A stretch of 63,805 nucleotides of DNA, the filler included, from Dirinaria sp. TL-2023a (Eukaryota): the NCBI GenBank assembly GCA_051941275.1. It is 3 parts of 3 records of this genome, joined end to end, with 100 filler letters (N's around TTAATTAATTAA, not from the genome) between each part and the next. Parts side by side here need not be neighbours in the genome. Positions count along the whole stretch, not along the records: positions 1 to 21,268 come from JAVEBF010000263.1; 2 more parts are not named here. The stretch is one strand, 5' to 3'. Below, one piece after another: positions 706-51,313 of this stretch. The notes under the pieces are model-generated. The model worked only from the letters and a program-made list of their open reading frames with translations. It was not told the origin of the DNA and did not search any database. The position numbers and the translations under genes were made by a program. Positions within the stretch are counted from its first letter, which is position 1; the number at the start of each line of letters is the position of its first letter.

Positions 706-1842
706 ATGTCTACGCAGATCAACGGTAACAAGGCCAATGGCGCTAGCGGAGGGATCAGCCCAAAGAGTAACTTGACCCGCCCCAATTCATGTAGAATCAA
801 GATAACAATCAAATTAAACCTCCTGCGATTTTTTAGTCACCTTCTATACCAATCACGCCTGCCCATGGGCCCAGCGAGCCCAGATCACACTCAAGGCCCT
901 GGGCCTATCATACGAAGAGGTCATCATACCCCTCGATCGGCCTCGCGAGCGTACGTATTTATTATTGCCCTAGAAATTATCCCTACATCCATCCGTAAAA
1001 AAGGGAAAACCTACCTAACCAAAGCAAACCCCCAAATCCCGCTATATAGAATGGTACCTCGAAATCAATCCTCGAGGGCTCGTCCCCTCCGTGAAGATCT
1101 CCAATGGCATTTTGCACGATGAGATCGTCACCGAATCGGCGATCGTGAGCACCTTTCTCGCGGATAGTTACCCCAGCTCCGCCTTCTGGCCCCCGAGCCA
1201 TGAGAGCCCCACGAGTGCGCTGACCCGCGCTCGCATCACCTTTTTCGTGGATACGTGGTTTTCCAAGGTCAGTAGCCTGTCGTATCCCATCATGAGAGCG
1301 GAGGGCAGCGAGTGGGATGAAAAGGCGAGGGAGCTGGTCAAGGCTGTTGAAAAGGAGATTGAGCCGCTTTTGGAGGGCGCAGCGCCGTTCTTCGGTGGGA
1401 GCACGGTTATCACTTTGGCAGAGGTAGGCTTTTTTTTTTTTTTTTTTCGTTTTACGAATGGGTTTTGACATATACACTGCCTGCTTTTTTGAAGAGGGGG
1501 GGAGAAAGGGGAAAGACAGAGTTTTCAACCAAATATTCCGCTGGCAAATGGAAGGTGCCATTCCATTTGTGGTTAACCCCGAAGAAAGGACGCGGCGACA
1601 ATGTCGAGAACAATATGAGACTGATATGTCGGCAGGCTTTGACGGCCCCGTTTGTGATCCGACTGCAGACGTTTAGCGAAGCCGGATACTTACCATCAAG
1701 TCTACTCAAGGACTTGAAGGCATTGCCCAACTACAGCAAGTGGAGCGAGGCACTCTCTACTGAGAAGAGTGTCACGTTGAATTATGATGGCCCCAGTATT
1801 GCCAAGTTGACGGCGCAAAAGATGAATCTGAAGGGCAAGTAG
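706..1842 (+). CDS. Glutathione S-transferase, omega/lambda-like (4 exons; introns ~767-836, 951-1049, 1424-1635)
   Basis: Spliced translation gives TFYTNHACPWAQRAQITL (CPWA active site), WYLEINPRGLVPSV, ESAIVSTFLAD and PFFGGSTVITLAE|ALTAPFVIR. GT..AG introns restore the frame. Confidence 0.88.
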
Positions 1843-2128
1843 GTCATAGTTTGCACACGAGAGAGGGTATGGCAGGATAATTATGATTACGAGATCCGAT
1901 CATTAGTCGACTGGCGTCAGCTTTCCTCACATTGAAAAATGAATGATTCAATCTTTTATTGATTGTCACCCTGGCACGTCAACCTGTACCGCGATCAATA
2001 GGGATGATAGCTAGCATGAAATTAATACTTTAGGGGCTGCTCTGCCCCCTATAAGCTTAGTTAACAACTACCAGGAAACGTCTCATTTCTCTAGAGGAAA
2101 ATTCATCTCTTGTTTCGACACCAAGTAC

Positions 2129-5100
2129 TTAGTGGTTTGCGTCAATAGTAGAAGACCGAGTTAGCTTCTCGTCCAATGACAGTGGAGTTAGCGAATCAAT
2201 CAAACGCCTCCATACTTGCGTGGCTTCATCCTCAGAATCGCCACCCGTCAATGTTGCTCTGTCACCAATAATAATGCAAGCACATCTGGCGCGGGTAAGC
2301 ACGACATTCAGCCGGCGCATATCTTTCAGGAAGCCAATGTCTGCATGTACATTACACCTGGTCGAAACAAAGATCACAACGTCTGCTTCCCGCCCTTGGA
2401 AACCGTCAATGCTATGGACAACCACAGCAGACTTTCGCAGCTCCTGCAGAAGCTCCACTTGCCGAGAATATGGAGCCAGGACCGCCACTGAAGGATGTGT
2501 AGGAGAGCTACCTGGGTCGCTTGACTCTGGCAGCAGCATCCTGCATGCTCTTTTGGTAAGCTCTGCTTGACCTTGGTTGCTTTTGGATTTGCGGCCTAGG
2601 TCTTCAGTGGCCGAACACTGCAGGAAGAACATGCGCGCAAGCTTTCCTTGCTCCTCGCAAGGCCATGGGAAGGATGCTGGGAGGAGAGGTCGGTCTTCAT
2701 CTTGAACAGCGGTCTTCAAGCGGCTTTCATAGAATTCTGTCGAACTGAACGCACTTATAGAGCTCTGCATCCGATACTGAGTATCCAGCATCACTTTGCT
2801 CAGAAATGGACGATGATTAGGTAAGGAATAGAGACGCTCGAACATGGAGACTTCAAAGCCGACGAGTCTGGCGTGGTGAATGACCGTGGCTCGAAGCTGA
2901 ACGTGGTCACCAACAAGGATGGCCTTAGAGCACCCCTTGGCCAGCGGAACGAGTGACTGTGGCTCCGTCTGTTGCGATGCCTCGTCGATGATCACAGTGT
3001 CGAACATCTCAGTTCGCAAAAGTCCAAGACCTGCGCCAATGCATGTTGTGAAGACCATGCGACACTGATTAATCTGCCTCTGGGCCTTTTTACGACCTGC
3101 CGGATTCTCGTTCAGGTCCTTACCGTACATAGCGTCACAAGTGTATTGCCTCAGATCTTCCGCAACCCTTCGAACCTAAAAAGATGGTCAATCTCCAGCG
3201 AGACGTTACGATACGTTGATCAGGGACTTACATCGGTCGAGACGCGCAGAGCATATTTCACACCTCCGCCCCGCATTCTTGCATGAGCCAAGTATTTCCT
3301 CATGATGTTATCCACGGCATTATGAGTGGGCGCTGTAACCAGTATTCGGCGCTCAGGGTTCGATGAAAGAAGCTCGAGAGCGACAGCAAGCGTATGAGTC
3401 TTGCCTGTGCCAGGTGGTCCCCAAACACACGTCAAGGGACTGGTCATAGCCAGCATAATTGCATCCTCCTGGCTCTGGTTGAGATCGTCACGCTGGAGCA
3501 CAGTGATGCCATCGTTGGCCTCATCCAGAAAGTGATCATCGTCGAGTGCTAACAGTCTCGATTGAAGGTTGCAAAATCGTGCTGGTGCGGTGATGAAATT
3601 ATTGAGTGCCTCGAACATCGCTTTGCTCGTCACAAAAGACCCACAGTGCTTCACCCTCCACGAGCATTCTTCGAGGAAAGGGGGGATGGGATGCAAAAAT
3701 CGGAAGGAGACATATCCTGGCTGCGCTGCCTCAACTAAGGCGTCGACTGAAGACGGTCTGGATTCAAGGCTGTTCGTCGGTAGAGTTGATGCCGTGAATT
3801 GGACGTGATCATTTGCATGGAATCGTATTGAGGAATGAGAGTCAATCCGGACATGACTTTTCACAAGTTCTGTCTCCACATCAAATGTTAGGTTGAGCAG
3901 ATCTTCCCGGACTGATAAAGACTCATTTGCTTCGTCAGCATGTTCGATAGCAATTCCAATACAGTTCTTGACAAAATATTGCACAAGCTTAGGCATTCCC
4001 ACTAGAAGTCGTGTGCTCTCTGGTTCAAGACAGCCGAGGAGAAGGTCAAGCACTACATCAGGCGTATGAACCATGAGAGAAATAGTCTCAGTCAAGTAGC
4101 TAAATGATGTGAATGAGAGTTGTGATACCTGTGATAAAGTGTATTTAAAAGGCTGGACCACAAGGAAGTTTACGTCATTTGCTGATGCTATGATGGAATC
4201 AAGGATATCCATCACCCTCTCATTCAAGAGTCTCTGAATAGGTTCACAGAGTTCTGCCCACAGCCCCAGGCGTGTAAAGGTTATCACCAGAGATGGCCGT
4301 TTTCGAAGAAAGTCCACCATCTTTTCTAGCACGAAAGGCTTTGGCTCTTGATGGGAACGGACCGTAACGGAAGATAGGAGATGCTCGAATACTGTCCGAA
4401 GCGTGACATTTTGACCATGACTCAGTAGCCATTCAAGCAGTTCGACCTGTTCTTCGGGCTGTTGCAGTGTTGGAAGTTTGAAGAATTGTGCATCTCGTGC
4501 TATATCGCAGATGAGTGCTGGTGTCTGAGCCCAGTCGACGTCTTTCATAGTTGGTAATGCATATTGCTTTTCTGTATTGTCGAACAAAGGCAATGTCTCA
4601 CGAGTATCAATCAAGCTAAGCCACTGATCCAGTATTTGTAGAGATCTACTGTCTCGATTACTGATGACGTAGACTTCTGCTCCGACGACGGCGTTTCTGT
4701 TAATCCTACCCACATGCTTGGTCAGGCTAGCGCTGAATTTGCCGAGAGCTATGCTCATGATCCAATCATGATTGGTACCTTGCTCGAGAGTAGCAAACCT
4801 GGCTCGTCTTCTATCCCCTTGGCCGGTAAGATCTCTATAAGTTGAATCATTAGAACCCGGTTTGGTAAGAAAGACCCAAGTGTTTGCTCGCTTCGTCTGG
4901 TAGAGTTGGAAGCCCCCGTCATCCAAGTACAGACGATAATCAATCTTAGTATTGAGAGAGAGTCGATGAGTAGTAGAGCTTTCCTGAGAATGAGGGAACG
5001 CAAAGAGGCGAACTCCATCGTTGACCACGCATTCTTGACTCTTTTGTACGCGACTTGGGATGTAGATTGCGAGGGTCAGCCTTGTGTCGGCTCGAATGAC

Positions 5101-7412
5101 GATCAGCTTTCGATGGAATAGTTCTGCGACTCGGCCTGTAGTCTCCATGAACCTACCCAAACGGTCAGTACTGGAGTCGAAGACGCACTTCCACCTGATC
5201 AAGGGGATATCAAGCTTGAAATATCGAAGCTCTTCCGTGGAAAGTAATTTGGAACCTAAAAGGGCGTTTTGAACCAAGCTGGGAATATATTTTTCAGGAG
5301 GCAGTTGTGCGACCACCCAGCTCTTCTCCTCATCCGACATTTGATTGAAATCAAAGTAGTCAAGAAAATCTTTCAGTGGATTTTTATTGCGAGCGCACCA
5401 CTCTGCTGTCATTTTGAAAAGCTCGAACTCGGAAAACGCTACGTTGTCTCTGCACAAGAGCACTTCTATCCCCTCTGTTGGCAGACCACTCAGCTGAGTC
5501 GCCAAGTGAAAACTAGACACTAAGACTTTAGCATCTTCGTGGAGAGCATCCAGAACGAACGGTGAAGCACTAGCAGCCGACTTCGGAGGCTCTTCTAAGT
5601 GGTGAGGGACCTTAATGCGGTTTCCGTCGACACACCTCGAGAAAAGATAGTTCAATTCTTGGCACTCTGAGCTCATGGGTCCGTTCAATCTTGCCCAATC
5701 CATGTAGAGATTTTTGACTCGACCGAGAGACGCATTCGTGTATGCCGCAAAGTATCTGAGCCGGTCATCATAGGAAATCTTGGCAAAGGTGACCGGTTCT
5801 TCCGCGCCCTGGTAACTAGCAGCTTGCGAGATCCTGCTTGGAATGAGATCGCTGTCCCAACATACAAAAACTGAGTTTTGGTCAGTGGATTGTTCAGCAT
5901 AGAGAATCATCTCTCACATTTGTCCCCATCGAGGTCTCCTCCTGACATCAGGTCGGCACTTGGACGCCGTCCTTGAGTAGGGAATGCTATGCAGTCCACC
6001 AGGTGCACAAGTTCGTCCCGCTGAACAGCTTTAAATTTCTGCACGTCTCCGGGATGCAGACAGGGATTTCTGGTCACGAGTACTTCCGTTCCCACAATGG
6101 TTCTCGGTACACCGTCTCCATCCATTGTGATTCTAAGAAAACATTCCCCGCTCTTCAACGAGGCTCTTGGGTCACATACCCCGAACACGAGCCTCGATTT
6201 TGGGATAAGAATTCGGCATCTTTGTTCATCTCTCTTGTTTATCATTCTGCTGTATTCGTTGTTGATGCGACCTCGTACTGTTGCTTCCACGGATTCAAGG
6301 CCTTCCATCAAGACTCTTTCGGCCAAATGTGGCTCATCGAGGTATGAAAGTAAACGGAAGGCAGATCTAGCGTCACGAGGAGCCGTAGAAAGGAAGTCCA
6401 GATACTCTCTTTGTTTTTGATGAAAGGTAGAATGTGGGATTCCCAAAGCCTCTAAAAGCAGAATAATCTCATCGTTTAGATAGCCAAAGCTGTACGGCTT
6501 GGAGTATTCCACAACGGAAAAAGTGAGATCAGGTGTATTCTCGATCTTCTTCATGGAATCTCTGAACTGAGCCAAAATCCGGCCCTTGAGGTTGGGTTCG
6601 AGCTCCAGTACTCCTTTGTACCCTCTATATCGAATCTGGAAAACAGAGGGCAAATATCGGTTGTTACGAAAGCGAATATCGAGCTTCTGTACCAACAGTC
6701 GGGCCAGGTGTGTTGAGATCAGGCCACAGCCGTCAGTAAATTTATAATTGCCCTGCGTAATATCTGGAATGTCTTGGCAACGGTCTGGCTGGAGCTGGCT
6801 TGCCACTTCGGCAGCAGAGAAGAGAAGGCCGATTCGTTTGGCCAACTTTGCGACCGTCTTGATTTTGGCAAAGTCTCCCAGAACATTGATTTTCCTTGAT
6901 ATTTCCTCTTTACTCGCCGCACAAAGGAAGCATGTCTTCGATTTCAGCTGGCTATTGCTGTGTCCATAGAAGCGATACTGAACATTGTTGATGTAAATCC
7001 CAGAGCTCAAAAGTCTCACGATATATTCGGTAGATTCTTTTGGTGGCGTTGGTTGTGACTCCTCGGGGCTTTTTGTTCGATATTCGTTACTCAATGGATA
7101 TTGGAGTCTGAATTTCTCAAAAGAGATAGATATGAAGCAATCTAATGCGTCCATGTCCACTGCCCTATTCGCAAACTGTCTCCTAAACCGCAGAGTAATT
7201 TCTTGCCTCTTTCGATCGGAGACGACGGCGATCGATTTGATGAAGCCAAGGTTATTGGTAATCGACGGTGACGGTAAATTTGGTACTGTATAAACCCATC
7301 GTTGATCATTAGGTCGAATCTCCCGCTGGAGAACGTAGCAGAAGTTTGATAGCGGGGTCGAAGCCATACTTATTGTCTGCTGCCGCGATAATCGTTCAGC
7401 TAAAGGTTGCAT
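2129..7412 (-). CDS. Fusion protein: cellular (RNAi-type) RNA-dependent RNA polymerase + BACK-like segment + UPF1/DNA2/NAM7-like SF1B helicase, ~1726 aa (exons 7412-5918, 5870-3232, 3175-2129)
   Basis: RdRP motifs: TDGCG, FQIRYRGYKG, RNPCLHPGD, SGGDLDGDK|FFVCWD. Helicase motifs: LNQSQ, GPPGTGKT, APTHNAVDN, IIDEASQ, GDHVQL, QYRM, DGFQGRE, RRLNVVLTRAR. Introns 5871-5917 (GTGAGA..CTGAC..CAG) and 3176-3231 (GTAAGT..TAG) join the three ORFs in frame (5181 nt). Confidence 0.88.
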
Positions 7413-7753
7413 TTACTGGAATTGCCTTCTCTGCAAAGCTCATAGGATACAACGGCCATGGCTCGTTGAAATGTGCAAAATCTCCCAGTAGGCAATCAAA
7501 CACAGGACGCTCTTCGTGCTATGCTGCGACGATCGCTGATACAACTTGTTGAGAGGTTGGGCGCATGCAGTGATAAATTCAGTATCTTGAAGGGAAAAAA
7601 GGGAGGGGTCATCGGCGATATGACGGACCGTCACTGGCCCTCGCTTGATCGTGAACCTCGACCATGTGAGGTGATATCCAACACAACCAAAGACTGTCAG
7701 CATCATCCACTCCCTGACCAAATCCAGTGAGTGATCTCTGCCCAAAACAAGCA

Positions 7754-8395
7754 ATGACGACCGGACGTCGTCTCGAAACGATGGCATCGAGACCACCTAA
7801 TATCTACATCATCGGCGCCCAAAGCACCGGCAAAACCACCCTAGTTTCTGCGCTGGGCCAGCACTTCAGTCAACCAAGAACCTACTGCGACGAGCCAGTC
7901 AGCCAACCGAGGATCATCAAGGAGGTCGCTCGTAATATCCTCCGCTCGCACCATTTCACAGCCTCCGATATTGCAAACTCTAAACACAGAGCTTTGGAGT
8001 TACAAAGTCTCATACTCGAGGCCCAATCCGAGCTCGAACGAGCCTCTTTACCAGATTGGTACATCTCAGATCGATCCGGTCTCGATCCGCTAGCGTACGC
8101 TCATCGATACGTAGGACACGAGGCGGCGAAGCAACTGAGACAAGGTGAGGCGTGGAAAGACGTCGAAAAGAGACTGGGAACGGGTCTGGTAGTCGTTTGC
8201 GCAACAGGAGGGGATTGGCTGATCGATGATGGGATCAGGCTGATGCCGAAGAGCAAAGATGACTGGATGGAGTTCCAGTCTATTTTTTGCTCTCTTCTTG
8301 ACGAGTTGGAAATGCAGTATACCATCTTGCCGAGTTCAATTAGGGATCTCGCGAGCAGGGTCGATTTTGTTCTTGAGAGATGGAAACATCGATAG
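7754..8395 (+). CDS. NadR/AAA_28-type P-loop nucleoside/nucleotide kinase-like protein (ATG at 7754 or 7781)
   Basis: NIYIIGAQSTGKTTL Walker A, IIKEVAR, ISDRSGLDPLAY (the DRxxxD motif of NadR/dNK-type kinases) and DDGIR. Single exon. Confidence 0.8.
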   Translation: MTTGRRLETMASRPPNIYIIGAQSTGKTTLVSALGQHFSQPRTYCDEPVSQPRIIKEVARNILRSHHFTASDIANSKHRALELQSLILEAQSELERASLPDWYISDRSGLDPLAYAHRYVGHEAAKQLRQGEAWKDVEKRLGTGLVVVCATGGDWLIDDGIRLMPKSKDDWMEFQSIFCSLLDELEMQYTILPSSIRDLASRVDFVLERWKHR

Positions 8396-9945: not shown

Positions 9946-11247
9946 TCAAATAGCCTGACCAGCTCCAATCCATACTCGGTAGCTATACCACGGCCCTTCC
10001 CGTGCATCAACATTTCGATACTGGAAAGTCGGACTCAACTCCAGCTGATTTGTACAGAAATATAGATATCCGTCCCAAATCGCAGCCGAATCGGCATGCT
10101 GAATGAGTCCGCTTCGAACCAATGTCTTGACTACATAGTTCTCTGTAGCTACTGGCCCCTCTCCACCACTTTTCACACCATTGACCTCCTCTGTGATGTA
10201 CTGCTGCTGGGTCTGGACCTGGTAGATGGCGTTTTGCTCGCTCGCCATCATGTACAGGACCCCTTTGTCGTCCGCCGTAAAGCCAGCCTGCTCAGAGCCT
10301 AATTGACCAGGAAAGGCGACTGCATCTAGTACTTCTTGATCGCTGGCCGATAAATTGGCTAAGATGGACTGCGGGATGTAGTAAAATCTACGCGAGGCGA
10401 GCACGCCCCAGTACACGTTCCCAGACTGAAGAGCGATGCCGTCCGACCCAGTGTGCGTGAACATCTTCTGAGTCCCGTTCCAGCTATAGACAGGCTGCCC
10501 GTTATAAGAGCCCACATAGCCGGGGTCTGCTTTGACGACCGAGGTGTTGAATAGACGCCGTACAGCGGAACCACTATCGAGATCGATAGCAACGAGGGAG
10601 CCGTATTGGCTTTCATCGGTGATAAACGCAAAGCCACCTGTCCCGACGGAGTTATTGATACGGACGTCATTAGCATTCATGCCATCATGATAAAGCGCCG
10701 GAGGAATAGGATAGCTCCGGATCAGGCTTCCATTGTTGGTCAGATTGAAAGACATGACTTTTGCGCCGTTAGGAGTCGCGGCCATGGAGCCTGGAGGAAT
10801 GCCGCTGTCAACGACCCACATTACGTGCTCTGGGTCTTTTGGGTCAAGGACGACGTTTTGCACATTGATAAAGCAGGTAGAAGGATCTTGATTGCCTGTA
10901 CAATTCTGAATTTCCGCGTTCGGCCATGCTCTTTCGTCTGTGAAATTAGTGGCGATTACTACATTATTAGGAGTCGCTCCAGTGTTTCGAGGGTAGGTTA
11001 GATAGACGTTCAAGGAAGGGTCAACGGCAAAGCCGGTAGGCGGTCGCTCCACGCTGGCATGAACAGCTTGCAGAGGTGGTCCGATGATGTCGAATGACTG
11101 CGGTGTCCCACCAATACTGAGATTGTTACTGTATGTCTGACCGCCTTCGAAGGGTGGACACGCTAGAAAGGGACAATTGGTTGCAACAAGACTTTGGGCT
11201 GCTAGAAGGTTTGCAGCCACAGACAAGCATAAAAGAATAGCAATCAT
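9946..11247 (-). CDS. Secreted major royal jelly protein/yellow family beta-propeller
   Basis: Signal peptide followed by FINVQNVVLD, MWVVDSG, NANDVRI, FAFITD, SDGIAL and LYFCTNQL motifs; intact 433-aa ORF. Confidence 0.85.
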   Translation of the reverse strand: MIAILLCLSVAANLLAAQSLVATNCPFLACPPFEGGQTYSNNLSIGGTPQSFDIIGPPLQAVHASVERPPTGFAVDPSLNVYLTYPRNTGATPNNVVIATNFTDERAWPNAEIQNCTGNQDPSTCFINVQNVVLDPKDPEHVMWVVDSGIPPGSMAATPNGAKVMSFNLTNNGSLIRSYPIPPALYHDGMNANDVRINNSVGTGGFAFITDESQYGSLVAIDLDSGSAVRRLFNTSVVKADPGYVGSYNGQPVYSWNGTQKMFTHTGSDGIALQSGNVYWGVLASRRFYYIPQSILANLSASDQEVLDAVAFPGQLGSEQAGFTADDKGVLYMMASEQNAIYQVQTQQQYITEEVNGVKSGGEGPVATENYVVKTLVRSGLIQHADSAAIWDGYLYFCTNQLELSPTFQYRNVDAREGPWYSYRVWIGAGQAI

Positions 11248-12486
11248 TCTGAATGTAATTTTGTAGTCGATTTCAGTTGTTCACGAATGGCTGTTGCAAG
11301 AGCTGGTCTGAAAGTTTTGTTGAATTCAGTCTCGAAGTTGAGTGTGCAGCGTTTGGTCTCTGGGATACGTCATCATCCTGCGTCTAAGTTCCGGCAATTA
11401 TTCACAGCATCGCCGCGCTCAGCAAATGGAACTTAAAACTTCAGATACTCATGACGGATTATTCTGCATTGGAACTTCGTGACGGTATCTGTGCTAAACA
11501 CGCATCACTTATTGCCCGGTCCTTTAGCCACCGCTGCCTGCCAAGCTTATCTACGGTTGAACTGCATCGACCACAGATAATCGGCAATTCATGGAACAAT
11601 GATACCCATTCGATGTTATCCATGTGCTTGGCATGTGGTGGCAGTGAGATAAATATCAGTGTATAAGCGATGATAAAGCTGAGCAGATGAACATACGATA
11701 TGACGTTGTATATGTGGCGGTGGGGTGGCTGGGTATATGGTAGTAAGTAGACGATCAAAAATCACAATGTTTACTTCCAGATGTTGACTGAAAAAAAGCA
11801 GCTCGTTAAAACTCCCGCTCTCCATGACATAACGGCGCATAGCGGCTTAGGGCAAACGAATTTGAAGAACTGCCTGTTTCCGCTGGCCCGAGCTATGGTC
11901 CCTAGCGACGCTAATTAGTACGATACGGAGTACGGAGTACATACGCACTACGTACAGTAGTGAGGGGAAGCCAACGAAATCCCAGAAATAATGCCCCGGT
12001 AAATGGACCTGTCCCTGCATATATGCGACGCAAGATTGGTTCAAGACGGACATGCACAGCCGCCCTAGCAGACACCTGACCCTAGCCACCGCTGCTCTGG
12101 GCCTTGACATGCTGAAAATTCCTCACGAAATACAATTGCGATCTTTGCCTCCCTACTGCTTCAAAATGATTAGAAGCAAAGATCAGCAGATTAATCGAGA
12201 GTGTTCGGGGGGGGCCGGAAGAGGAACGGTAAGGATTCAGGATCTTTTGCAAGCGTACTGAGTAGTACGATCAGTGCCGACATCGGCACACTTTGCTTCC
12301 CGCATCCTTCCGCCAGTCATGCGACTGCCACTTCGTAAGTTTCTACCTTCTGTACCATCTTGTGCAGATTTCAATGTGTAATAATTTATCTCCTTTCTTT
12401 CCTTCGCCTCTCTCTTTTGGTTTCTTTTCGAGAATTCACTGCCTGCTTGTCGCATTGCAAGATAATCTCTGATAATTATCGTAAAA

Positions 12487-18987: not shown

Positions 18988-21268
18988 TGCGAGAGGCTCT
19001 CGGTGTGTTTGTGCAGCCTAGATCGGGTATTGATGCAAATAAAGACGAGTGTGGTATGAACAATGTAGTTTCTATCGATCTTGCACAACAGCATTCGGCG
19101 CTTCGAAAGCCAGTAACAGCGGTCTGTAAACTCCGTAGTGACAGGAGTGGATCTTCTCTGGGAAAAGCGAATTATTGAGATACTTCGACTTACTCGATGA
19201 TTATAAAGTGTTGTCTGGTAAACTGCAGCTGGGTGAGATGGAGGATAAACTCAAACGACTTGATTGTGCAGAGAAGATCCTGCAAGATGCATCGAAGGGG
19301 TTTGAATAGTCTTACATGAACATCAGGACCTACATTCGTGGAGGCTTAGGAGGTTGAGGATCGCCTGGAAGGCAATGACTGCATGGCTGTGATCCCTGCA
19401 ATGTGATCGTAAAATCTGCTCAAATTCACGCACTAATCTTGAACATCCAACTCCACAGAGAACAAACCCCAGACTAGCCAAGTGCTTCAGAAAAGAATGT
19501 GGACATGATCGTCGCAATGTTCTGCAGTGTGACCCAATAATGTGCTCAAACTCGCGCATTCTCCCGCCACTAGGCTTAGCGCGTTGCAGCTGGTAGTAAG
19601 AACACACATCAGGACTTGATGTCTGAGTTCAGCGAATGATGACCGCACTCGGCGCCTCTGACTTGAGTAGTGTGGCGAGGAACAAGCCTACCCCTTCTGG
19701 GCCTTCTTCGAGACTTGAATATTTCAATGGAGCTTGCAGCAGTTGCTTCGATTCACCGGCTCAAAAGATGTTTTTCACTGGCATCCTTTGTTGAAAATAT
19801 GATACCAAACAGTGTTGCACAAAACTCTTGAAAACATGCAGGCCGACCGGGTCAGCTTTAAGCCTGATCTCGATGCCAGCCCTTGAATAGCATTTGAATG
19901 TGGCAGCAGCTCCGCTGTGTTCGAACACCACCTATTGCGCAGAAGAGAATGATGTTCTGAGCAATGAGGCAATCCTTGCAGAGGCTTTATCTCTGCAATT
20001 TAGCACATCAACTTCGACGTTTCGATGTCGATTGCTTGGTCTGTGCACTGCAGTCAGCCCTCGTAAAAGCGCTATATTTGATCAATGTATTGTACCAAAA
20101 GCCAAACGAGATCTCCGTGTGTAACACTCATATCAGCAGGGATCGTGGGACTTGTGATCAGCTCGCGATCCCAACTTGCGTCCTCGAAAGCGCAGAATTA
20201 AATCTCACATTAGACTTGACGTAAACGTGGCGATAATTAGCATTTAACAATCTGTTTGTGAATGCTACTGGTGTCGGTATTGCTCTGACAGAATATTTAG
20301 GTGTTGACCCACGCGCTGCAACTCGACTTGATTGATAGCATCATAATGCTGGCCTTTCATTAGCACAATCGCATTGAGATTTGTATATTTCTTGATACAG
20401 TCATTGGAATTCTCGTTTTTCCACAAAGTTACCATATTTGGAGCGCTCAATAGCTTAATAGGCGAGCAGAGGAATAGCAACAACCTAATAGGAAGACTCA
20501 CGACAAGAACCTGAGAGGTTGATTTATTTCCTAGGGTCTTTGTGGGATATAGACTCGTCGCTTACTTGCTTTTAGCTTTGCTATATGCTTGAAACTTGAA
20601 TAGACAGCTGAAAGCCAAAGCTTACTAGATTTTTTGTACTATGCGAAACAAGATCAGGGCTGCTCATCGCTGTCGTCTTCACTAAGATACATTGATGAGC
20701 ATACCTTCTGCTGCTGGAATTTGCGAAGACAGAATGGCGAACGTAAGTTAATGACATTGTTCTGGATCACTGACAAGTTGCGGAGCGGACAAGGAACCCA
20801 AGAAATGATTTGTTTCCCATTTGGAACTGATTTCAAATCTTGAGGCGTGGTCAATTCTTTATGTCCAAGACTCCAAGCACTGAGACCAAGTCAGGATCTG
20901 GCTGCGATTCGAATACAATTGAGGTCGTGTGTCGACTCGAGGAAATAGCATACGCTGGTCAGATGTTCGCCGTAGATAAGCATGAGATACAAAATCTAAG
21001 GCGGTATGCGTTGTCGTAGCAATTGCTTCTTCCAAGTCCCAAGCTCGCCTGCAAGCCTTTTTCCTTTTCTTCTTGCCTTTGGTTGAATGAGGCTTTAAGA
21101 CCAGATCATTCAGCCATACCCGTGTAGAAGTAACAACACATTCCGGGCTCTAGACCACGTATTATATGACCGCCGGTAAATTGCAGCGCCGTCGCCAATG
21201 GCTCTGAGATTACTCGTATTCACCTACTTTGTTGCGTCACCTACTTTGTTGCGAGGGTTAGGGTTATC

Positions 21269-21368
21269 NNNNNNNNNNNNNNNNNNNNNNNNNNNNNNNN
21301 NNNNNNNNNNNNTTAATTAATTAANNNNNNNNNNNNNNNNNNNNNNNNNNNNNNNNNNNNNNNNNNNN
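21269..21368. other. Assembly gap (N run with TTAATTAATTAA linker)
   Basis: N run containing the artificial six-frame-stop linker. Confidence 0.97.
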
Positions 21369-21609
21369 CTACTACAAAGTCGCTCGAAAGTGCTTCGTGA
21401 ACAATGTCTGAATACAAGAGACAGACTATCATCTGATCACAGAATCTGATATCTCTCTTCGCGTCTTCTCTTCACAATTTGTCGTCGAAATATTAGCCGC
21501 GCGATTGAAGACAATGACTAAAGAAGATCTCAAATTCATTCAGCAACGTAAGAGCTTAGAGAAGAAGATTCAGAGCTTAAGACAAGAAAGAGCAATTCTC
21601 ACAAGCTAA
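21369..21609 (+). pseudogene. 3' remnant (GED domain) of an Mx-like dynamin GTPase; 5' part lies in the gap
   Basis: Translates YYKVARKCFVNNV*IQETDYHLITESDISLRVFSSQFV...QQRKSLEKKIQSLRQERAILTS*, collinear with the GED of the intact dynamin (YYKVARKRFVDCIRMQAADYHL...); internal stop. Confidence 0.8.
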
Positions 21610-22637
21610 AGTCGAGATTCATCATTGAATCTCTTTAATATCTTTTGCTTATCTGCAAGAATACATAAGCGAAAGGTCATGAGAGGCGAACAATGAATTC
21701 TGATGCTAGAGATTGACAGCCTTAAATCTAGCAGAGTCATTGAAAACAGACATATCAGATTCAGTCTCAAACACTACATTCTTAAGAATCGTAGCAATGA
21801 TGTGAAACCCAAAGATCTAAGATTTCGAAAATCTGCTCTCTCCTCTGATGAAAAATCGTCTCATAATCTCATGTCTCTTTGATGATCTGCTCAAAAAAGG
21901 CCTATCACAATTTAAACAGAATCAATATGTTTCTATCCGGCTTCGTTTTCATCTGCGAGATTTTTTTGACTTTATTTCAATGAGACAAAGTTCAGAGGCC
22001 CTTCGAAGGAAGCTCGAGCTCTTTGAAAGCTTTCACTTTTTCTTTTAGCGATTGATACAATCCTGTCGTCTTCCTTCTGTTGCGCTCTTTCTGAGTCTGA
22101 GACTGTCGTCGTTGTTATTTTCGAGCTTGCCAGTTCTTCTTCGTTTTACTTGAAGCTGAATCTGCTTCCCTCTTTTCATCCTCGCTAATCAGTCAGCTCG
22201 AACATCTTGAATCAGACTTCTAATCAGCTCATTATTCGTAAAGTTTCGATTAGAAGTAGCCATCGTCTTCTAGAGAGCCAAATTCTCTCTGCCCCGTTGG
22301 TACCTCCTCAAGTGTTGTAAAGGTGACTCGATGCGATCTTCTTTCTCAACATGCTCATCTTCTCTGACAAATACTTTGGCCAGCGCATTGCATAGCATTC
22401 GGCTATAATCATGCTCTGCAGTTCTTGAATCTTCGTCGATTAGGTTGCGCATATCCCTCGGTGCAAATCGTCTAAAGACTAATTCACAGGATCATCAATC
22501 AGACTACTGGGAGATCATAAATATTCATAGCAGTCTGGCATTAGTTCCTTCTGGTGGCTTGCTAGTACTGACATTGGAGGCTCCCACTACTGAAAGTATC
22601 AGTCAGGCTCCTCATGAGTCCATCAGAGAGTTTTCTA

Positions 22638-46955: not shown

Positions 46956-48008
46956 GTTGAGCAGAGCCAACAAAGGAAAAGATAGCACAAGCGCTGTACA
47001 GAATGGAGTAGATGTATCGAACCTCTACTAGAAGTCAAAGACGACCTTGAAGTCTGCCACCTTAATGTCAAGAGGCCAGCCAGCTGACAGCAGCTTACAA
47101 TTTCTGTATTGATCAGCAGCTGCAAGATCATCTATACACCGTTAGAATGAAATCAATTACCGTTGACGTAAATAAGAGTAGCACTGACCAGGCCAGGCCA
47201 AGTGACTCAAGAAGCATGAGGCTTCCCCTGCTCGGAGTGAATGCCAATGCATAATGTACACTAGCTTTCCAACTCGATTAATGCTGATACTTGAGTCGGG
47301 TATCGTTGGGCTCGGGCTTCTTGGCCCGCTTTTACTTCTTTAGCGGGCCAGGCTAGTGTCATGGCAGCTTGCTTCGAAAGGTAAGGTAAGTAAGGTATTC
47401 ACGCTGTGGTGCTGCAGGCTGCAGATCAGAGCCACACCACTTTCGATGCATCGGATAGAGACATTGGTCAGTACTCTGTAGAAGCAGAACTAGAACATCA
47501 AAGTGTCCGCATTTGGCTACAAACCGCGAGACGCATCTCAGACAAGCGACACGCTGTACTCTAGTAGGTATGCGCACACGAGGAAAGTGTGACTGTTCGC
47601 TACAGGTGCATCAATTAGCTGCAGTGGCCTTCGGACACTTGGGTTTCTTTTTCCGTGGGGGACGGTCACGTGACAGTCTCACCCCACGCTGGTTCAATTT
47701 TCAGTAGATCTCCTCATATCAATACTACTATATGCTCGAACTGTCCTTTGACGTTGAGATGAGCTTCTGCTGTAGCCAACGGAGAAAAAATCACCGATGC
47801 GTAAACAAGCTGACCAAGCGAAGGTACGGAGGTCAAATACTGCTAGCTGTACATCAACAGGTCGGTGATGGCCGATTCATATGTGATTGTAACATTAGCG
47901 AAGGGATAATGATAAGCCCGAGCTGCAGAGCCTAGAGAAGAGGGGCTCGGAGAATAATGTGGCTTGAATAACTTTAAACAAGTAGTGGTTCTCGTCCATC
48001 CTCTAAAG

Positions 48009-49785
48009 CTAACCTTGAGGTTGCGCATCCACCGTGGATGGCTGAAGATCTGCTTCGCAGCTGACCTTTTCGCGATACCAGAGGTGCCTTAGTGGTTCTT
48101 GATGGTCTGCCCTAATAATGATACGGAACAGAAAGCTGCTTGCTCCAATCCAACTGCAATTCATTCCGCGGTTCTTTTGCCTCAAAGACTGATACCGAAT
48201 TGGCGTGCCATTCATGCAAATCTTCCCGAAATCCGAGTAGTCGTTGCGTCCACAGTCGGTCGCAGCGACTTGATGACCTTCAGTGGGGAGTCTGAAGGTG
48301 TCGAGCATGAAGGTCGCTGCCTATAAGATTGAAATCGGGCACATCGACTGGGAATGCTCTCGGAGCAGCCTTGTAAGGATTCGTCAATGCTGCGACCAGC
48401 TAAGCACTGCTTTGGGTGGGCTTAAGTATATTGTCGTCTCATCCCAGTGTTTTCTTAAGGATGTATCACCTCATCCTGTGCGATCAGCAAAATCGTCCAA
48501 CCACCACCTGCTGGTACCGAAAATTGTCGAATGATTGGCAACGCAGCTTTTCATCGCTGCGATCGTCCGAACCGCGCATCGTAGCCGGCGTCGAGGGCAT
48601 TATCTGGTCCGTAGCCGTAGCTGAGGGCCCTTCTGCGGGCCTGACTATCCCCCAAAGCTTCGGCATACGCAGCCATTGCCAGCGTCAATTCACCTTCGTC
48701 GTGAGATCTCCGAGAGATCTCGGTGCGACGAGCGAAGAAGCCTTCGGTGGAAACTTTCATCGCGCCGCACAGGTGCTTTCGGTCCTCGACAGGATTGCAC
48801 ACCAAGCTGGTGGCGCGCCTCTGGAGCAAGGCATGAAGCCCTACTCTAAGCGGGGATTGCGGCGTCAGCCGGGCGATATATGCCATTATGGCGTTAGCGA
48901 TGGCATCGCAGGCGTTCGGGGTCTCCCCAACAAAGGCCAGAAAGTCGATGTTGCAGGTGGAGATGAACTGGCGCACGGTAGGGAGACGCAGCGCATTGCG
49001 GCCGGTAAGGTCGAGCTCGGTCCACAGTCGCCCGGCAACAGGGGCCTGCTGCCTAAGCAGCCAGTCTGTCTTGGTCGGCCCATCCAGGCTATTATCTTCC
49101 ATACCTTCTATCTCCCTCAGGCTGTTCCCAGGTGCGCTGCTCGGCTGCTCCAATGGTCTTCCCAGCTGTTCATCTGGGACCAGCCCCGTCCCAAGTTCTC
49201 CTGAGGTGCCATCCAATGCAGGATCTGAAGACCGCACAAGTTAGAAACCTGTGATCCATTCAAGCAAAGTGAAAGGGGTGAACACTCACCAGTGATATTC
49301 AGTCGGCCAGGGGCACTTCTCCGAAGCACCTCCTTTATGTCATCGCCCTGTGCGGTCCACCACCACCACCACATCCCCAACTTCTTCACCTCCTGCTTCG
49401 CCGCATTCTCAGTAGACGTCAATACCTCCACTTGCTGCATGTAGTCCTCCACATCATGCTGATCCGGCCCTTCCGCTCGCTTGGCGCCCAAAAGCGCATT
49501 CTGTCCCTCCCAAGTAAATGCTTCCGTTGCTGGCCAGCAGCTCGGATGTGTATATACAGGTATTTCTTCTGCCCTGCTCAGATTATATGGTATAGTCGCG
49601 TGGGATCGAAAGTGGGTCTTGGCCCAGCCTCTGCTCCGGAACCTTCGCTCACACAGAACACACTCGTACTTCGGCGCTTTCGGGGCCTTCTCGATTTTGT
49701 ACGGCAGCGATCTTAAGGTTCCGGTGTAAGTTGACCGTGTCTTGCGGTATTCCGAGCGCTTTCCAGACCGAGTAGCTGGTCCCAT
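48009..49785 (-). CDS. Hypothetical multi-exon protein with an N-terminal C2H2 zinc finger; 3' end uncertain
   Basis: YECVLCERRFRSRGWAKTHFRSH; a GTGAGT donor near 49289 leads into the 48551-49237 ORF. Confidence 0.45.
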
Positions 49786-51313
49786 GATGGTGAAGAAGAG
49801 CTGAAAATGGAAGTCGCTGTCTCTTTGCAAAGTAGTTGATGAGCTGTACGAGCTATTTTTTGGAGTACCGCTGAGACAGAGTAGATTCCAAAAAGCGATA
49901 TCTCGTTCCCTACCGACCGGATAAGATGTTTCTCATGAAAGCCGAGCAGAGGTAAAGATGAAAGATGTTCCAAAGAAAGTCGATCAGTCGAAACAGCCGG
50001 GGCTTCTTCTCCAAGGGTGCAGCTAGCTGTACGAGATAGACGTTGCCGACGGGAATTTTGAGTGAAAAGCAAGATGAAACCGGGAAATTGCCACCAGGGC
50101 CAACCAGAGAGGACAGCGTCGGTACAACAATTCGAACAAGAGATAGCGATATATATCAAGGGCAGTCGAGAGCAAGATGACACAGAATCAAAAAAGAAGA
50201 AAAGAGAGAGAGAAACTTCCACGAGCAAATATATACATCGAGACCTGGGACTAGCAACGCCAGCACGAACGGGATTCCTATTGTCAAAATCTTTGCTATT
50301 GTGATTATTTCTCTATAGGGTGGAGGCCTGTTATTTTTGCGGAGTTTTCTATTGTTCAAATATATGTTTCATGCTGGCTAGTGCGGATGGAGACCCACTT
50401 ATCTAGGAATCTTAGTGTTGTTGATTTTCATTGTTGTGGAATATTCACCTCTGTTTCAGGTGAGATGGGTGGTATGACCGGGTTATTGATTCGCTCTTTA
50501 TTACCAATTGATTTGAATTGGATTGAATTGGATGACAGTTCTACGATTAGGGAATAGGAAAGGAGTACTCATACCTTGGCGGGAGGGCTATTTATGTCGA
50601 TGAGTACGAACTTGGAAGTTGTGTGAAGTTCATTTTTAGGTTAAGGTTTGAGAAAATGTCCAATGACAACACTATAGCTGAGCAGGAGGACGACGACGAT
50701 GCGGCGCTGAATCAATAATAACATAAAGGCAAGATAACTATCACTGCAATTCCGAGAGTCGAAGCAAGCGAGCAAACATCTTGGAAATTTGCGGAACTGG
50801 CAATAAATGTGAGCCTTGATCTGCTTGCAATACATGTTTTGGGCCATGATCCGCCTAACCCAGTTCGATAATTTTCCTCTCATGTCTTCAGTATCGTTTA
50901 CATTTTGCTTCGAGAGCATTTTAATGAGGCTCAGGGAGTCGTTGCTGCTGCTGCTGCGGTGGCGGCGGCGGTCTTTCTTTTCTTTGGCCAGCATCAAACC
51001 GCCGGAGAGTCGTTTTCAATGTGCATGCTGGCGCTGGCGATGTTTACGGGAAACCGAACATTGCCACACGGGGAGATTGGCAGAGTGACCTGCGAAGATC
51101 CAAGGGCGAGTCATGATGAGATCTAATCTTCAGCTAGGACAAGTGTAAACGAGACGCAACGGGATATTGCAGCGGCATCTCGACTGCTGCAGGAGCCAGT
51201 AGACCGATGATCGAGGCTGTAAGGGTGGCAGTTTCTCCCCTCTTTCTCGATTACCACGAGCCATGGTATCTTCATGTTTACCCGCAGAACCAATTTACTT
51301 TAATATTGTGACC

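What the first reader, a model, noticed from the sequence alone, without database searches (positions are those of the whole stretch)
2129..7412. Single-chain RdRP-SF1B helicase fusion: a self-contained dsRNA synthesis/sensing machine
Seen: two short canonical introns fuse an intact cellular RdRP (catalytic DLDGD) to a complete UPF1-like helicase (motifs Q to VI) in one ~1726-aa frame. Established: RNAi RdRPs work with separate UPF1-like helicases, e.g. S. pombe Rdp1-Hrr1 in the RDRC, C. elegans EGO-1 with ZNFX-1, and Neurospora SAD-1 with SAD-3. Canonical fungal QDE-1, SAD-1 and RRP-3 lack a helicase. Inference: this is a divergent RdRP clade that hard-wires the RdRP-helicase partnership, plausibly for antiviral or anti-transposon RNA surveillance.
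Basis: partly seen in the sequence, partly recalled or inferred. Interest (0 to 1): 0.85.

Follow-up and report, generated by a model that had tools for sequence, protein, structure and literature searches.

The report
Known fungal RdRP–helicase fusion gene
This is a real, expressed lichen-fungus gene that joins an RNA-copying enzyme of the RNA-silencing kind to an RNA helicase in one protein, but the same design is found across moulds and mushrooms and its Fusarium counterpart (FgRdRp5) has already been described and knocked out.

Summary
A three-exon minus-strand gene (2129-7412) encodes a 1726-aa protein: a cellular RdRP (PF05183, DLDGD), then a complete UPF1-like SF1B helicase (AAA_11/AAA_12). 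It equals the public Dirinaria sp. protein from its second Met.

One correction: both introns lie inside domains. The RdRP end and the helicase start share one 2639-nt exon, so the fusion does not depend on splicing. RNA contigs of a related lichen sample show both splices.

The architecture is Dikarya-wide. The protein is 46% identical and colinear with Fusarium graminearum FgRdRp5. That protein's RdRP+helicase design was printed in 2015, and its knockout in 2024 lowered exonic siRNAs and ascospore discharge.

The RdRP is nearer plant RDR2 than QDE-1, and the helicase is nearer UPF1 than ZNFX1.

New here: a conserved, divergent TLDc-fold domain sits between the two enzymes (Z 14), and I found no paper reporting it. 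Apparent stand-alone helicase forms in metagenome catalogues are gene-calling artefacts. An earlier report of this scan reached the same verdict on another genome. An antiviral role remains unshown.

The parts
2129..7412 (-). Whole coding region of the RdRP-TLDc-helicase gene (1726 aa from the first ATG; the public annotation starts at the second ATG, 7367)
   Evidence: TAA lies directly upstream of the ATG at 7412, and the TAA stop is at 2131-2129.
5918..7412 (-). Exon 1 (498 codons plus 1 base): N-terminus and most of the RdRP domain, ending in DLDGDK
5871..5917 (-). Intron 1, 47 nt, GT..AG, inside the RdRP domain
   Evidence: Sequence. An RNA contig joint skips 47 nt in run X3. HSP breaks fall at the same protein position in 6 of 11 related loci.
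3232..5870 (-). Exon 2 (2639 nt): RdRP tail, TLDc-like domain, helical region, beta-barrel and helicase start. The fusion itself is inside this exon.
3176..3231 (-). Intron 2, 56 nt, GTAAGT..TAG, inside AAA_11
   Evidence: Sequence. The joint is seen in 3 of 3 RNA runs. HSP breaks fall at the same position in 7 of 11 related loci.
2129..3175 (-). Exon 3: rest of the helicase (motifs II-VI) and the stop codon
5590..7148 (-). RdRP domain (PF05183, profile 26-541 of 582), spanning intron 1
   Evidence: 389.5 bits, cut-off 23.8; coordinates checked
5922..5936 (-). Catalytic loop DLDGD (residues 493-497)
   Evidence: Present in 142 of 146 family proteins.
4660..5271 (-). Divergent TLDc-fold domain (residues ~699-902)
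   Evidence: AF2 model with pLDDT 92.8. VIA-align Z 14.0 to 4acj; the only 6 chains of 48,161 with Z>=8 are all TLDc. ESM Atlas gives 30 of 30 TLDc clusters. Pfam finds nothing on it.
3919..4521 (-). Helical region (residues ~949-1149). Its last part aligns to the stalk that precedes the helicase in Sen1/SETX.
3634..3918 (-). Beta-barrel (residues ~1150-1244), the 1B-type accessory barrel of UPF1-like helicases
   Evidence: model 587-879 aligns to SETX, Sen1, UPF1 and ZNFX1 at Z 8-9.4
2258..3483 (-). SF1B helicase core (AAA_11 + AAA_12), from LNQSQ to beyond motif VI, spanning intron 2
3397..3420 (-). Walker A, GPPGTGKT
   Evidence: present in 141 of 146 family proteins
2972..2986 (-). Walker B, DEASQ
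   Evidence: present in 143 of 146 family proteins

Best explanation
The gene is the Dirinaria (Lecanoromycetes) ortholog of Fusarium graminearum FgRdRp5. It belongs to a family that appears vertically inherited across Dikarya. One polypeptide carries, in order: an alpha-type cellular RdRP (DLDGD), a divergent TLDc-fold domain, a helical region, a stalk plus beta-barrel, and a UPF1-like SF1B helicase core. Shown here: the gene structure, its expression and splicing, the domain order, the conservation of both catalytic sites, and the orthology. Taken from papers on the ortholog: it contributes to Dicer-dependent exonic siRNA accumulation and to ascospore maturation and discharge. Inferred: the RdRP copies selected mRNAs into antisense RNA or dsRNA. 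The helicase, tethered in cis, would do what separate SF1 helicases do for other RdRPs, namely load on single-stranded RNA and strip proteins or structure. Because UPF1-like enzymes move 5'-to-3' while the polymerase reads 3'-to-5', it would either act on the product or displaced strand or hand the template over. The TLDc domain is probably a docking or regulatory module.
For: Gene model and identity to P0001. Domains. Splicing in RNA contigs. Orthology: 46% identity over 1720 colinear columns to FGSG_09076. All 98 long homologs list PF05183 with PF13086, and 119 of the 120 listed carry both enzymes, many of them Agaricomycetes. In a tree of 47 members every fungal class with 4 or more rows is one side of a branch (support 99-100), and the window protein sits inside Lecanoromycetes. 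DLDGD is kept in 142 of 146 members, Walker A in 141 of 146 and Walker B in 143 of 146. The RdRP is nearest RDR2 and the helicase nearest UPF1. The stalk and barrel match Sen1, SETX and UPF1. TLDc fold. Function of the ortholog: PMC11237814 (abstract and passages) and PMC4515635 (passages).
Against: No biochemistry exists for any family member, so polymerase activity, helicase polarity and any coupling between them are inferred. The FgRdRp5 knockout phenotypes are partial (discharge at 47.6% of wild type) and overlap with those of FgRdRp1 and FgRdRp2. The same paper also reports ribosome-biogenesis genes changed in the mutant. PMC4870495 says FgRdRp5 may not be critical for hairpin-RNA silencing. 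The N-terminus before the RdRP domain is short (about 88 aa, against about 450 aa before the aligned region in RDR2), so the RdRP may lack accessory domains. Nothing is known for the lichen fungus itself. The RNA contigs come from a related strain, one sample only.
Confidence: 0.75

Rival explanations
1. One reading: a self-contained dsRNA synthesis and sensing machine dedicated to antiviral or anti-transposon surveillance.
For: FgRdRp5 was predicted to be a target of hypovirus-derived siRNAs, and the authors suggested an antiviral role (PMC4870495, abstract and passages). A table in PMC6764512 lists 'roles in the antiviral defense' for it. Both catalytic sites are conserved.
Against: No virus-challenge or transposon phenotype of a mutant appears in any passage I read. 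The one functional study ties it to endogenous exonic siRNAs and sexual development. Nothing in the domain set is a known dsRNA sensor: no dsRBD or RIG-I-like domain appears in Pfam at E<=0.001. The tree mirrors the fungal classes at this sampling, with no sign of the turnover often seen in arms-race genes, though that is weak evidence.
Confidence: 0.12
2. The protein mainly serves RNA quality control or ribosome biogenesis rather than RNAi. The UPF1-like helicase would be the primary activity and the RdRP domain would be accessory or inactive.
For: The helicase is closest to UPF1/NAM7 (E 1e-49). The ortholog's knockout changes ribosome-biogenesis genes, and a predicted interaction network links it to NAM7 and DBP4 (PMC11237814 discussion). 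The RdRP N-terminus is short.
Against: DLDGD is kept in 142 of 146 members across Dikarya, which argues for a working polymerase. The knockout lowers antisense exonic sRNAs. UPF1's own CH zinc-knuckle domain is not detected by Pfam, so this is not a UPF1 ortholog.
Confidence: 0.1
3. Gene-model artefact: two adjacent genes, an RdRP and a helicase, read through as one.
For: Protein catalogues hold helicase-only pieces of 806-907 aa and RdRP/TLDc-only pieces.
Against: The RdRP tail and helicase start share one uninterrupted 897-codon frame. The roughly 700 residues between them are conserved, with invariant residues. In 11 of 11 related metagenome loci examined, the RdRP-TLDc part lies directly upstream of the 'stand-alone' helicase ORF on the same strand, 16-60 nt away in another frame, which is an intron rather than a gene boundary. 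One helicase-only cluster also holds a 1664-aa full-length member. RNA contigs tile the linker apart from 4106-4211 among the listed rows.
Confidence: 0.02

Closest known systems
Fusarium graminearum FgRdRp5 (FGSG_09076; P0037)
   Same: Same length class (1721 against 1726 aa). 46% identity over 1720 colinear columns. Same order of RdRP, then AAA_11/AAA_12. The TLDc-like region is also conserved, at 52% identity.
   Different: Different class of fungus (Sordariomycetes against Lecanoromycetes). The papers call its helicase a 'DEAD-like/DEAD box' domain. Here it scores as SF1B UPF1-like: AAA_11/12 at E 1e-42 to 1e-45 and UPF1 structures at E 1e-49, while Pfam DEAD scores 20.2 bits, below its 26-bit cut-off. 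The passages I read do not mention a TLDc domain.
S. pombe RDRC (Rdp1 with helicase Hrr1), Neurospora SAD-1 with SAD-3, C. elegans EGO-1/RRF-1 with ZNFX-1, Arabidopsis RDR6 with SDE3 (recalled; SAD-3 and Hrr1 are also named in PMC11237814's discussion)
   Same: A cellular RdRP works together with an SF1 RNA helicase.
   Different: In those systems the partners are separate proteins; here they form one chain. The fused helicase is nearer UPF1 than ZNFX1 among solved structures (E 1e-49 against 5e-21). No NFX1-type zinc fingers are detected.
Dictyostelium RrpA/RrpB/RrpC
   Same: A cellular RdRP and a helicase domain in one protein (PMC3661229, passages).
   Different: The helicase lies in front of the RdRP there, and by recollection it is a Dicer-type SF2 helicase. 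Here it lies behind the RdRP and is SF1B.
Plant RDR2 (7eu0, 7roz)
   Same: Best solved-structure match of the RdRP part (E 5e-59, query 115-574 to chain 453-929). DLDGD-type catalytic loop.
   Different: RDR2 has about 450 residues before the aligned region and no helicase. The window protein has about 115 residues there.
UPF1/NAM7 helicase core (2xzl, 8rd3, 2gjk)
   Same: Best match of the helicase part (E 1e-49 to 6e-48). Stalk, 1B barrel and RecA1 align (Z 8-9).
   Different: No CH (UPF2-binding) zinc domain is detected. The N-terminal partner domains are RdRP, TLDc and helical instead.
TLDc domains of Oxr1/Oxr2, NCOA7, mEAK7, TBC1D24, Rtc5
   Same: Same fold over nearly the whole domain: Z 11.3-14.0, rmsd 2.9-4.2 A, 146-168 residues aligned.
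   Different: 8-14% identity. The window's own sequence gives no Pfam TLD hit even at E<=10. Those proteins bind V-ATPase; none is known to sit in an RNA enzyme.
Nidovirus replicase (nsp12 RdRp followed by nsp13 UPF1-like helicase) (recalled)
   Same: An RNA polymerase and then an SF1B UPF1-like helicase encoded in the same order. nsp13 is a weak sequence match of the helicase (E 8e-5). It raises the same polarity puzzle.
   Different: The viral RdRp has a right-hand fold unrelated to the two-barrel cellular RdRP. The viral proteins are cleaved apart.

Membership tests
Eukaryotic cellular RdRP (PF05183) | Pfam match above the gathering score | tested here: met
   389.5 bits against a cut-off of 23.8, profile 26-541 of 582
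Eukaryotic cellular RdRP (PF05183) | Catalytic DxDGD loop | tested here: met
   DLDGD at residues 493-497; present in 142 of 146 relatives
Eukaryotic cellular RdRP (PF05183) | RNA-templated RNA synthesis | not testable with these tools
   No biochemistry for any family member in the papers read
QDE-1 / SAD-1 / RRP-3 clades of fungal RdRPs | Groups with one of the three Neurospora RdRPs in a tree | not tested
   I had no tool-given sequences of the three. Indirect evidence: QDE-1 structures match only residues 422-497 at E 3e-14, against RDR2 at E 5e-59. PMC11237814 states that FgRdRp5 is 'in a separate branch' (passage).
FgRdRp5 orthogroup (RdRP + C-terminal SF1B helicase of Dikarya) | Full-length colinear similarity to FGSG_09076 | tested here: met
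   46% identity, 1720 columns, 3% gaps
FgRdRp5 orthogroup (RdRP + C-terminal SF1B helicase of Dikarya) | Same domain order and spacing | tested here: met
   DxDGD precedes Walker A in 137 of 146 proteins, with spacing 748-966 residues and median 827.
FgRdRp5 orthogroup (RdRP + C-terminal SF1B helicase of Dikarya) | Placement in the family tree matches the organism's class | tested here: met
   The window protein falls inside a Lecanoromycetes group of 5 with support 100. Dirinaria's lineage was checked; the other class labels are from my own knowledge of the genus names.
FgRdRp5 orthogroup (RdRP + C-terminal SF1B helicase of Dikarya) | Role in exonic siRNA accumulation and ascospore discharge | not testable with these tools
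   Known only for F. graminearum (PMC11237814)
UPF1-like SF1B helicases | AAA_11 and AAA_12 above gathering scores | tested here: met
   144.5 and 153.3 bits against a cut-off of 27
UPF1-like SF1B helicases | Motifs I, Ia, II, III, V, VI | tested here: met
   GPPGTGKT, APTHNA, DEASQ, GDHVQ, SIDGFQG and VVLTRA. The motif patterns were written from my own knowledge.
UPF1-like SF1B helicases | Stalk helices and 1B beta-barrel in front of RecA1 | tested here: met
   Model residues 587-879 align to SETX (Z 9.4), Sen1 (9.3), UPF1 (9.1) and ZNFX1 (8.1)
UPF1-like SF1B helicases | 5'-3' ATP-dependent unwinding | not testable with these tools
   -
UPF1 proper (NMD factor) | N-terminal CH zinc-knuckle domain that binds UPF2 | tested here: not met
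   No such Pfam family among the 11 hits at E<=0.001 on the whole protein. The region before the helicase is RdRP, TLDc and helical.
ZNFX1 / Hrr1 / SAD-3 helicases | Closest helicase relatives; NFX1-type zinc fingers (ZNFX1) | tested here: not met
   ZNFX1 core at E 5e-21 against UPF1 at E 1e-49. No zinc-finger family. Hrr1 and SAD-3 themselves were not compared because no sequences were at hand.
TLDc domain (PF07534) | TLDc fold | tested here: met
   Domain model with pLDDT 92.8. The 6 chains of 48,161 with Z>=8 are all TLDc (Z 11.3-14.0); the next best is 5.5. Whole-exon model: the top 10 rows are TLDc.
TLDc domain (PF07534) | Pfam TLD match above the gathering score | tested here: not met
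   No family at all at E<=10 on window:4624-5286. 4 of 20 relatives' fragments give sub-threshold TLD hits: E 0.0012-0.11, 12.8-19.2 bits against a cut-off of 24.5. PF07534 is absent from the precomputed lists of all rows.
TLDc domain (PF07534) | Binding to V-ATPase | not testable with these tools
   -

The most novel reading that the evidence does not exclude
The invariant-studded TLDc-fold domain wedged between polymerase and helicase is a working part, not a spacer. One possibility is that it tethers this single-chain RDRC-like enzyme to V-ATPase-bearing endomembranes. Another is that it regulates the RecA-type helicase in cis, in the way TLDc proteins grip the beta-barrel crown of the RecA-like V1 A/B subunits. 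The helicase's own 1B barrel has that same barrel fold (Z about 8). Either would make the Dikarya RdRP-TLDc-helicase family a mechanistically distinct route to siRNA precursors.
Probability: 0.12. Interest if true: 0.6.

Novelty: new member of a known kind. Interest (0 to 1): 0.3.

Why it matters
The fusion itself is not news. It is the lichen-fungus copy of a family already named FgRdRp5, whose architecture and knockout phenotype are in print.

The follow-up adds several points:
- The fusion is present in both Ascomycota and Basidiomycota, and its tree mirrors the fungal classes.
- The helicase is SF1B UPF1-like, not the 'DEAD box' named in the Fusarium papers.
- A conserved TLDc-fold domain that Pfam does not detect lies between the two enzymes.
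- Helicase-only relatives in metagenome protein catalogues are pieces of intron-split fused genes.

The family remains biochemically untouched. It offers a natural single-chain version of the RdRP-helicase partnership for in-vitro study.

Tried and rejected
- **Own genome:** none is held, so paralogs such as SAD-1, QDE-1, RRP-3, UPF1 or SAD-3 in Dirinaria could not be counted.
- two references were out of frame and were corrected. In one search my exon-2 reference began one base inside intron 1, which changes only the first residue.
- **Stand-alone forms:** I looked for unfused forms of the helicase half or of the middle module (242 proteins at E<=0.001 among 1.84 billion). Many hits begin at the TLDc/helical boundary or end there. 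This was rejected as evidence of unfused genes after (11 of 11 loci examined, out of 80 fetched, hold the RdRP-TLDc part directly upstream; a full-length member in a 'fragment' cluster).
- **Pfam on alignment A2:** I scanned 20 short fragments instead.
- **Literature searches:** wording such as 'RdRP-helicase' or 'RdRp fused', and two ortholog locus tags, gave only viral or unrelated papers (the Nematostella hit concerns a viral RdRp-eGFP construct). Searching TLDc together with 'RNA-dependent RNA polymerase' found 2 papers, unrelated by title and not opened.
- **Other fungi:** C. parasitica rdr1-4 (PMC4182546) and V. nonalfalfae RdRPs (PMC6572790) do not include this architecture in the passages read.
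- **RNA coverage gap:** among the listed RNA contig rows, 4106-4211 is unbridged. Twelve rows were not shown, so nothing can be made of the gap.
- **Rooted RdRP tree:** a tree against QDE-1, SAD-1 and RRP-3 was not built, because I had no tool-given sequences of them.

Full report
**Observation**

The minus strand of 2129-7412 holds three long open frames. Reading the junctions gives two canonical introns. Intron 1 is 5917..5871: 47 nt, GTGAGA...CAG, with a CTGAC branch-like site. Intron 2 is 3231..3176: 56 nt, GTAAGT...TAG.

Joined by coordinates, the frame is 1726 codons with a single terminal stop. From its 16th residue it is identical to a public 1711-aa protein, P0001. That protein is named by its source as a hypothetical protein of a metagenome-assembled genome of Dirinaria sp.. 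Dirinaria is a lichen-forming genus of Lecanoromycetes. The first ATG (7412) sits directly behind an in-frame TAA; the public model uses the second ATG.

Pfam on the whole protein gives three strong matches:
- RdRP PF05183, E 3.9e-116, profile 26-541 of 582;
- AAA_12, E 7.8e-45;
- AAA_11, E 6.7e-42.

The catalytic DLDGD and helicase motifs I, Ia, II, III, V and VI are all present.

The introns do not create the fusion. Intron 1 falls right after DLDGDK, inside the RdRP domain, and intron 2 falls inside AAA_11. Exon 2 alone carries the RdRP tail (Pfam positions 442-541) and the helicase start (AAA_11 positions 2-79), about 700 residues apart in one uninterrupted frame.

**Expression**

Three RNA-seq runs of a lichen metatranscriptome hold 30-33% of the sampled words. 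They represent one sample and one study, are kept as contigs, and are 95-99% alike, so they come from a related strain.

Laid on the window, their contigs tile most of 2203-7221. They skip exactly 3176-3231 in 3 of 3 runs and 5871-5917 in 1 of 3 runs. The skipped ends read CT..AC on the plus strand, which is GT..AG on the minus strand. No single contig spans both enzymes, and among the listed rows 4106-4211 is unbridged.

**How common the fusion is**

A search with exon 2 among longer proteins returned 98 proteins of 1555-2011 aa. Every row lists PF05183 together with PF13086. By my reading of the genus names, they come from Lecanoromycetes, Leotiomycetes, Sordariomycetes, Dothideomycetes, Eurotiomycetes and Pezizomycetes.

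A second search, seeded with a distant member (P0096), found 924 proteins at E<=1e-20. Of the 120 listed, 119 carry both enzymes, and many are Agaricomycetes such as Pleurotus, Amanita, Mycena, Rhizoctonia and Auricularia.

Across the 146 proteins fetched by these two searches:
- DLDGD is present in 142;
- a Walker A motif in 141;
- DE[AS]xQ in 143;
- the polymerase motif precedes Walker A in 137, at a spacing of 748-966 residues.

I built a FastTree tree of 47 members chosen for taxonomic spread (1644 columns). Each class with 4 or more rows, and Basidiomycota as a whole, falls on one side of a branch with support 99-100. The window protein falls inside Lecanoromycetes with support 100. This pattern fits old vertical inheritance in Dikarya. 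The tree has no outgroup and was rooted at the midpoint for drawing only.

**What is already known**

One member is F. graminearum FGSG_09076, known as FgRdRp5 (P0037). It is 46% identical to the window protein over 1720 colinear columns with 3% gaps.

- **PMC11237814 (2024, abstract and passages):** places it 'in a separate branch' from QDE-1, SAD-1 and RRP-3. It reports induction in sporulation and sexual stages. For the deletion mutant it reports ascospore discharge at 47.6% of wild type, abnormal ascospores, fewer sRNAs antisense to exons and altered ribosome-biogenesis genes.
- **PMC4870495 (abstract and passages):** predicts that hypovirus siRNAs target it and notes that it may not be critical for hairpin-RNA silencing.
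- **PMC3661229 (passages):** shows that Dictyostelium RrpA-C also combine a helicase and an RdRP domain, in the opposite order.

That condition is met. An earlier report of this scan on another genome reached the same verdict; I arrived at it before seeing that note.

**Affinities of the two enzymes**

Against all PDB sequences, the RdRP part ranks as follows:
- plant RDR2: E about 5e-59, query 115-574 to chain 453-929;
- QDE-1: E 3e-14 to 4e-12, over residues 422-497 only.

The helicase part ranks as follows:
- yeast NAM7/UPF1: E 1e-49;
- human UPF1: E 6e-48;
- SETX (Chaetomium): E 6e-38;
- IGHMBP2: E 4e-36;
- Sen1 and DNA2: E about 1e-31;
- ZNFX1: E 5e-21.

The Pfam DEAD family scores 20.2 bits, below its 26-bit cut-off. 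The helicase is therefore SF1B UPF1-like, not a DEAD-box enzyme as the Fusarium papers word it. It is also not UPF1 itself, because no CH zinc domain is detected. Among solved structures it is not closest to ZNFX1, the family to which, by my recollection, the classical RdRP partners Hrr1, SAD-3 and ZNFX-1 belong. Those three could not be compared directly.

**The 700 residues in between**

I modelled exon 2 with AlphaFold, using 42 homologs as its alignment. The model has mean pLDDT 77.3 and pTM 0.54. Adding 499 to exon-2 numbers gives full-length numbers. In exon-2 numbering it shows:
- a helical stretch at 33-220;
- an alpha/beta domain at about 200-403;
- helical repeats at about 450-650;
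- a beta-barrel at 651-745;
- the start of RecA1.

Residues 587-879 align to the stalk, barrel and RecA1 of SETX (Z 9.4), Sen1 (9.3), UPF1 (9.1) and ZNFX1 (8.1).

The alpha/beta domain is a TLDc fold, supported by several lines of evidence:
- The top 10 rows for the whole-exon model are all TLDc domains. The best is 4acj at Z 13.9, rmsd 3.0 A, 155 of 167 residues aligned.
- Folded alone with 48 homologs, including basidiomycetes, the domain reaches pLDDT 92.8 and pTM 0.88.
- A Foldseek-independent comparison with 48,161 chains finds only six with Z>=8, and all six are TLDc: Oxr2 14.0, NCOA7 13.8, mEAK7 12.9, TBC1D24 12.3, Rtc5 11.5 and Oxr1 11.3. The next best is 5.5.
- The ESM Atlas feature search gives 30 of 30 named hits as TLDc clusters, at scores of 0.94-0.95. 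Its recognition value of 1961 is below the 2300 mark, so this is weaker support.
- Pfam finds nothing on the window's own domain even at E<=10. However, 4 of 20 relatives' fragments give colinear sub-threshold TLD hits at E 0.0012-0.11.

Most invariant residues of the middle region lie in this domain: N201, S206, W226, R263, L322, S372, L375, G387, N404 and D406 in exon-2 numbering.

PF07534 appears in none of the precomputed Pfam lists. A full-text search for TLDc together with 'RNA-dependent RNA polymerase' found 2 papers, unrelated by title. I therefore regard the TLDc domain as not yet reported for this family, within what could be searched.

**Are there unfused relatives?**

A full scan of 1.84 billion representatives with the middle region found only 242 proteins at E<=0.001. 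Many start exactly at the TLDc/helical boundary and run 480-500 or 806-907 aa. Others end at that boundary. The 806-907 aa ones are complete helicases by Pfam.

I fetched related metagenome loci (80 kept) and examined the 11 with a full-length match and upstream DNA. In 11 of 11, the RdRP-TLDc part lies directly upstream on the same strand and in colinear order.

HSP breaks with a change of frame fall in three places:
- near P0001 residue 881/882 in 5 loci;
- near residues 483-485 in 6 loci;
- near residues 1362-1368 in 7 loci.

The last two positions correspond to this gene's own introns. One 'helicase-only' cluster also contains a 1664-aa full-length protein. The split forms are therefore products of intron-blind gene calling, and the window gene's two introns sit at positions shared across the family.

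**Mechanism**

*Shown:* one expressed chain with two conserved catalytic centres and three conserved accessory modules.

*From the ortholog:* a contribution to Dicer-dependent exonic siRNAs.

*Inferred:* the helicase does in cis what separate SF1 helicases do for other RdRPs. UPF1-like helicases move 5'-to-3' on single strands, and a polymerase reads its template 3'-to-5' (both statements are established knowledge, not tested here). The helicase therefore cannot simply lead the polymerase along the template. More likely options are:
- selecting the template and stripping its proteins before hand-over;
- travelling on a displaced or product strand to release products or allow strand-displacement synthesis;
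- braking or backtracking, as is discussed for nidovirus nsp13 with nsp12 (recalled).

The role of the TLDc domain is open. A dedicated antiviral role remains unsupported by any mutant phenotype in the passages I read.

**Verdict**

The family, however, is known and widespread. The new elements are modest: the TLDc domain, the helicase class, the Dikarya-wide spread, and the artefactual split forms.

Noticed in passing
P0106 and P0298: Two fungus-gnat assemblies (Bradysia odoriphaga and B. coprophila) carry a full-length 1732-1734 aa RdRP-helicase homolog on contigs of 2.8 and 15 Mb. One is a RefSeq 'uncharacterized protein'. In the tree they group (support 99) with an unnamed metagenome protein (P0105), outside both the Ascomycota and the Basidiomycota sets. 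Possible explanations are gene transfer from a fungus into a fungus-feeding insect, a wider animal distribution, or contamination.
   Followed up: partly
P0096-P0105: A group of unnamed metagenome proteins (1567-1714 aa, 30-37% identical to the fungal ones, on contigs up to 199 kb) has the same architecture and forms a third branch beside Basidiomycota. Their organism is unknown.
   Followed up: partly
L001-L029 against window introns at 5871-5917 and 3176-3231: The two intron positions of this gene, after DLDGDK and inside AAA_11, recur as frame-changing HSP breaks in 6 and 7 of 11 related loci. A third break at the TLDc/helical boundary, seen in 5 of 11 loci, is absent here.
   Followed up: partly
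window 7718-8395 (+): The divergently oriented neighbour, about 300 nt upstream of the gene's start, encodes an AAA_28-type P-loop protein (PF13521, E 1.5e-25). RNA contigs cover it from 7709 onward.
   Followed up: partly
window 9946-11280 (-): An open frame of 444 codons with a major royal jelly protein / yellow-like domain (PF03022, E 5.4e-19).
   Followed up: no
window 1800-2128: One RNA contig (run X2, 2877 nt) continues from the helicase exon through the stop codon at 2129 to 1800 and runs over the end of the stretch laid. This could be a long 3' UTR or an overlap with a neighbouring transcript.
   Followed up: no
window about 1430-1500: A homopolymer tract shows up as runs of F on one strand and K on the other in the ORF translations downstream of the gene.
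   Followed up: no
window 20001-22000 and 48001-50000: G+C dips to 0.397 at 20-22 kb and peaks at 0.539 at 48-50 kb, against about 0.47 elsewhere.
   Followed up: no
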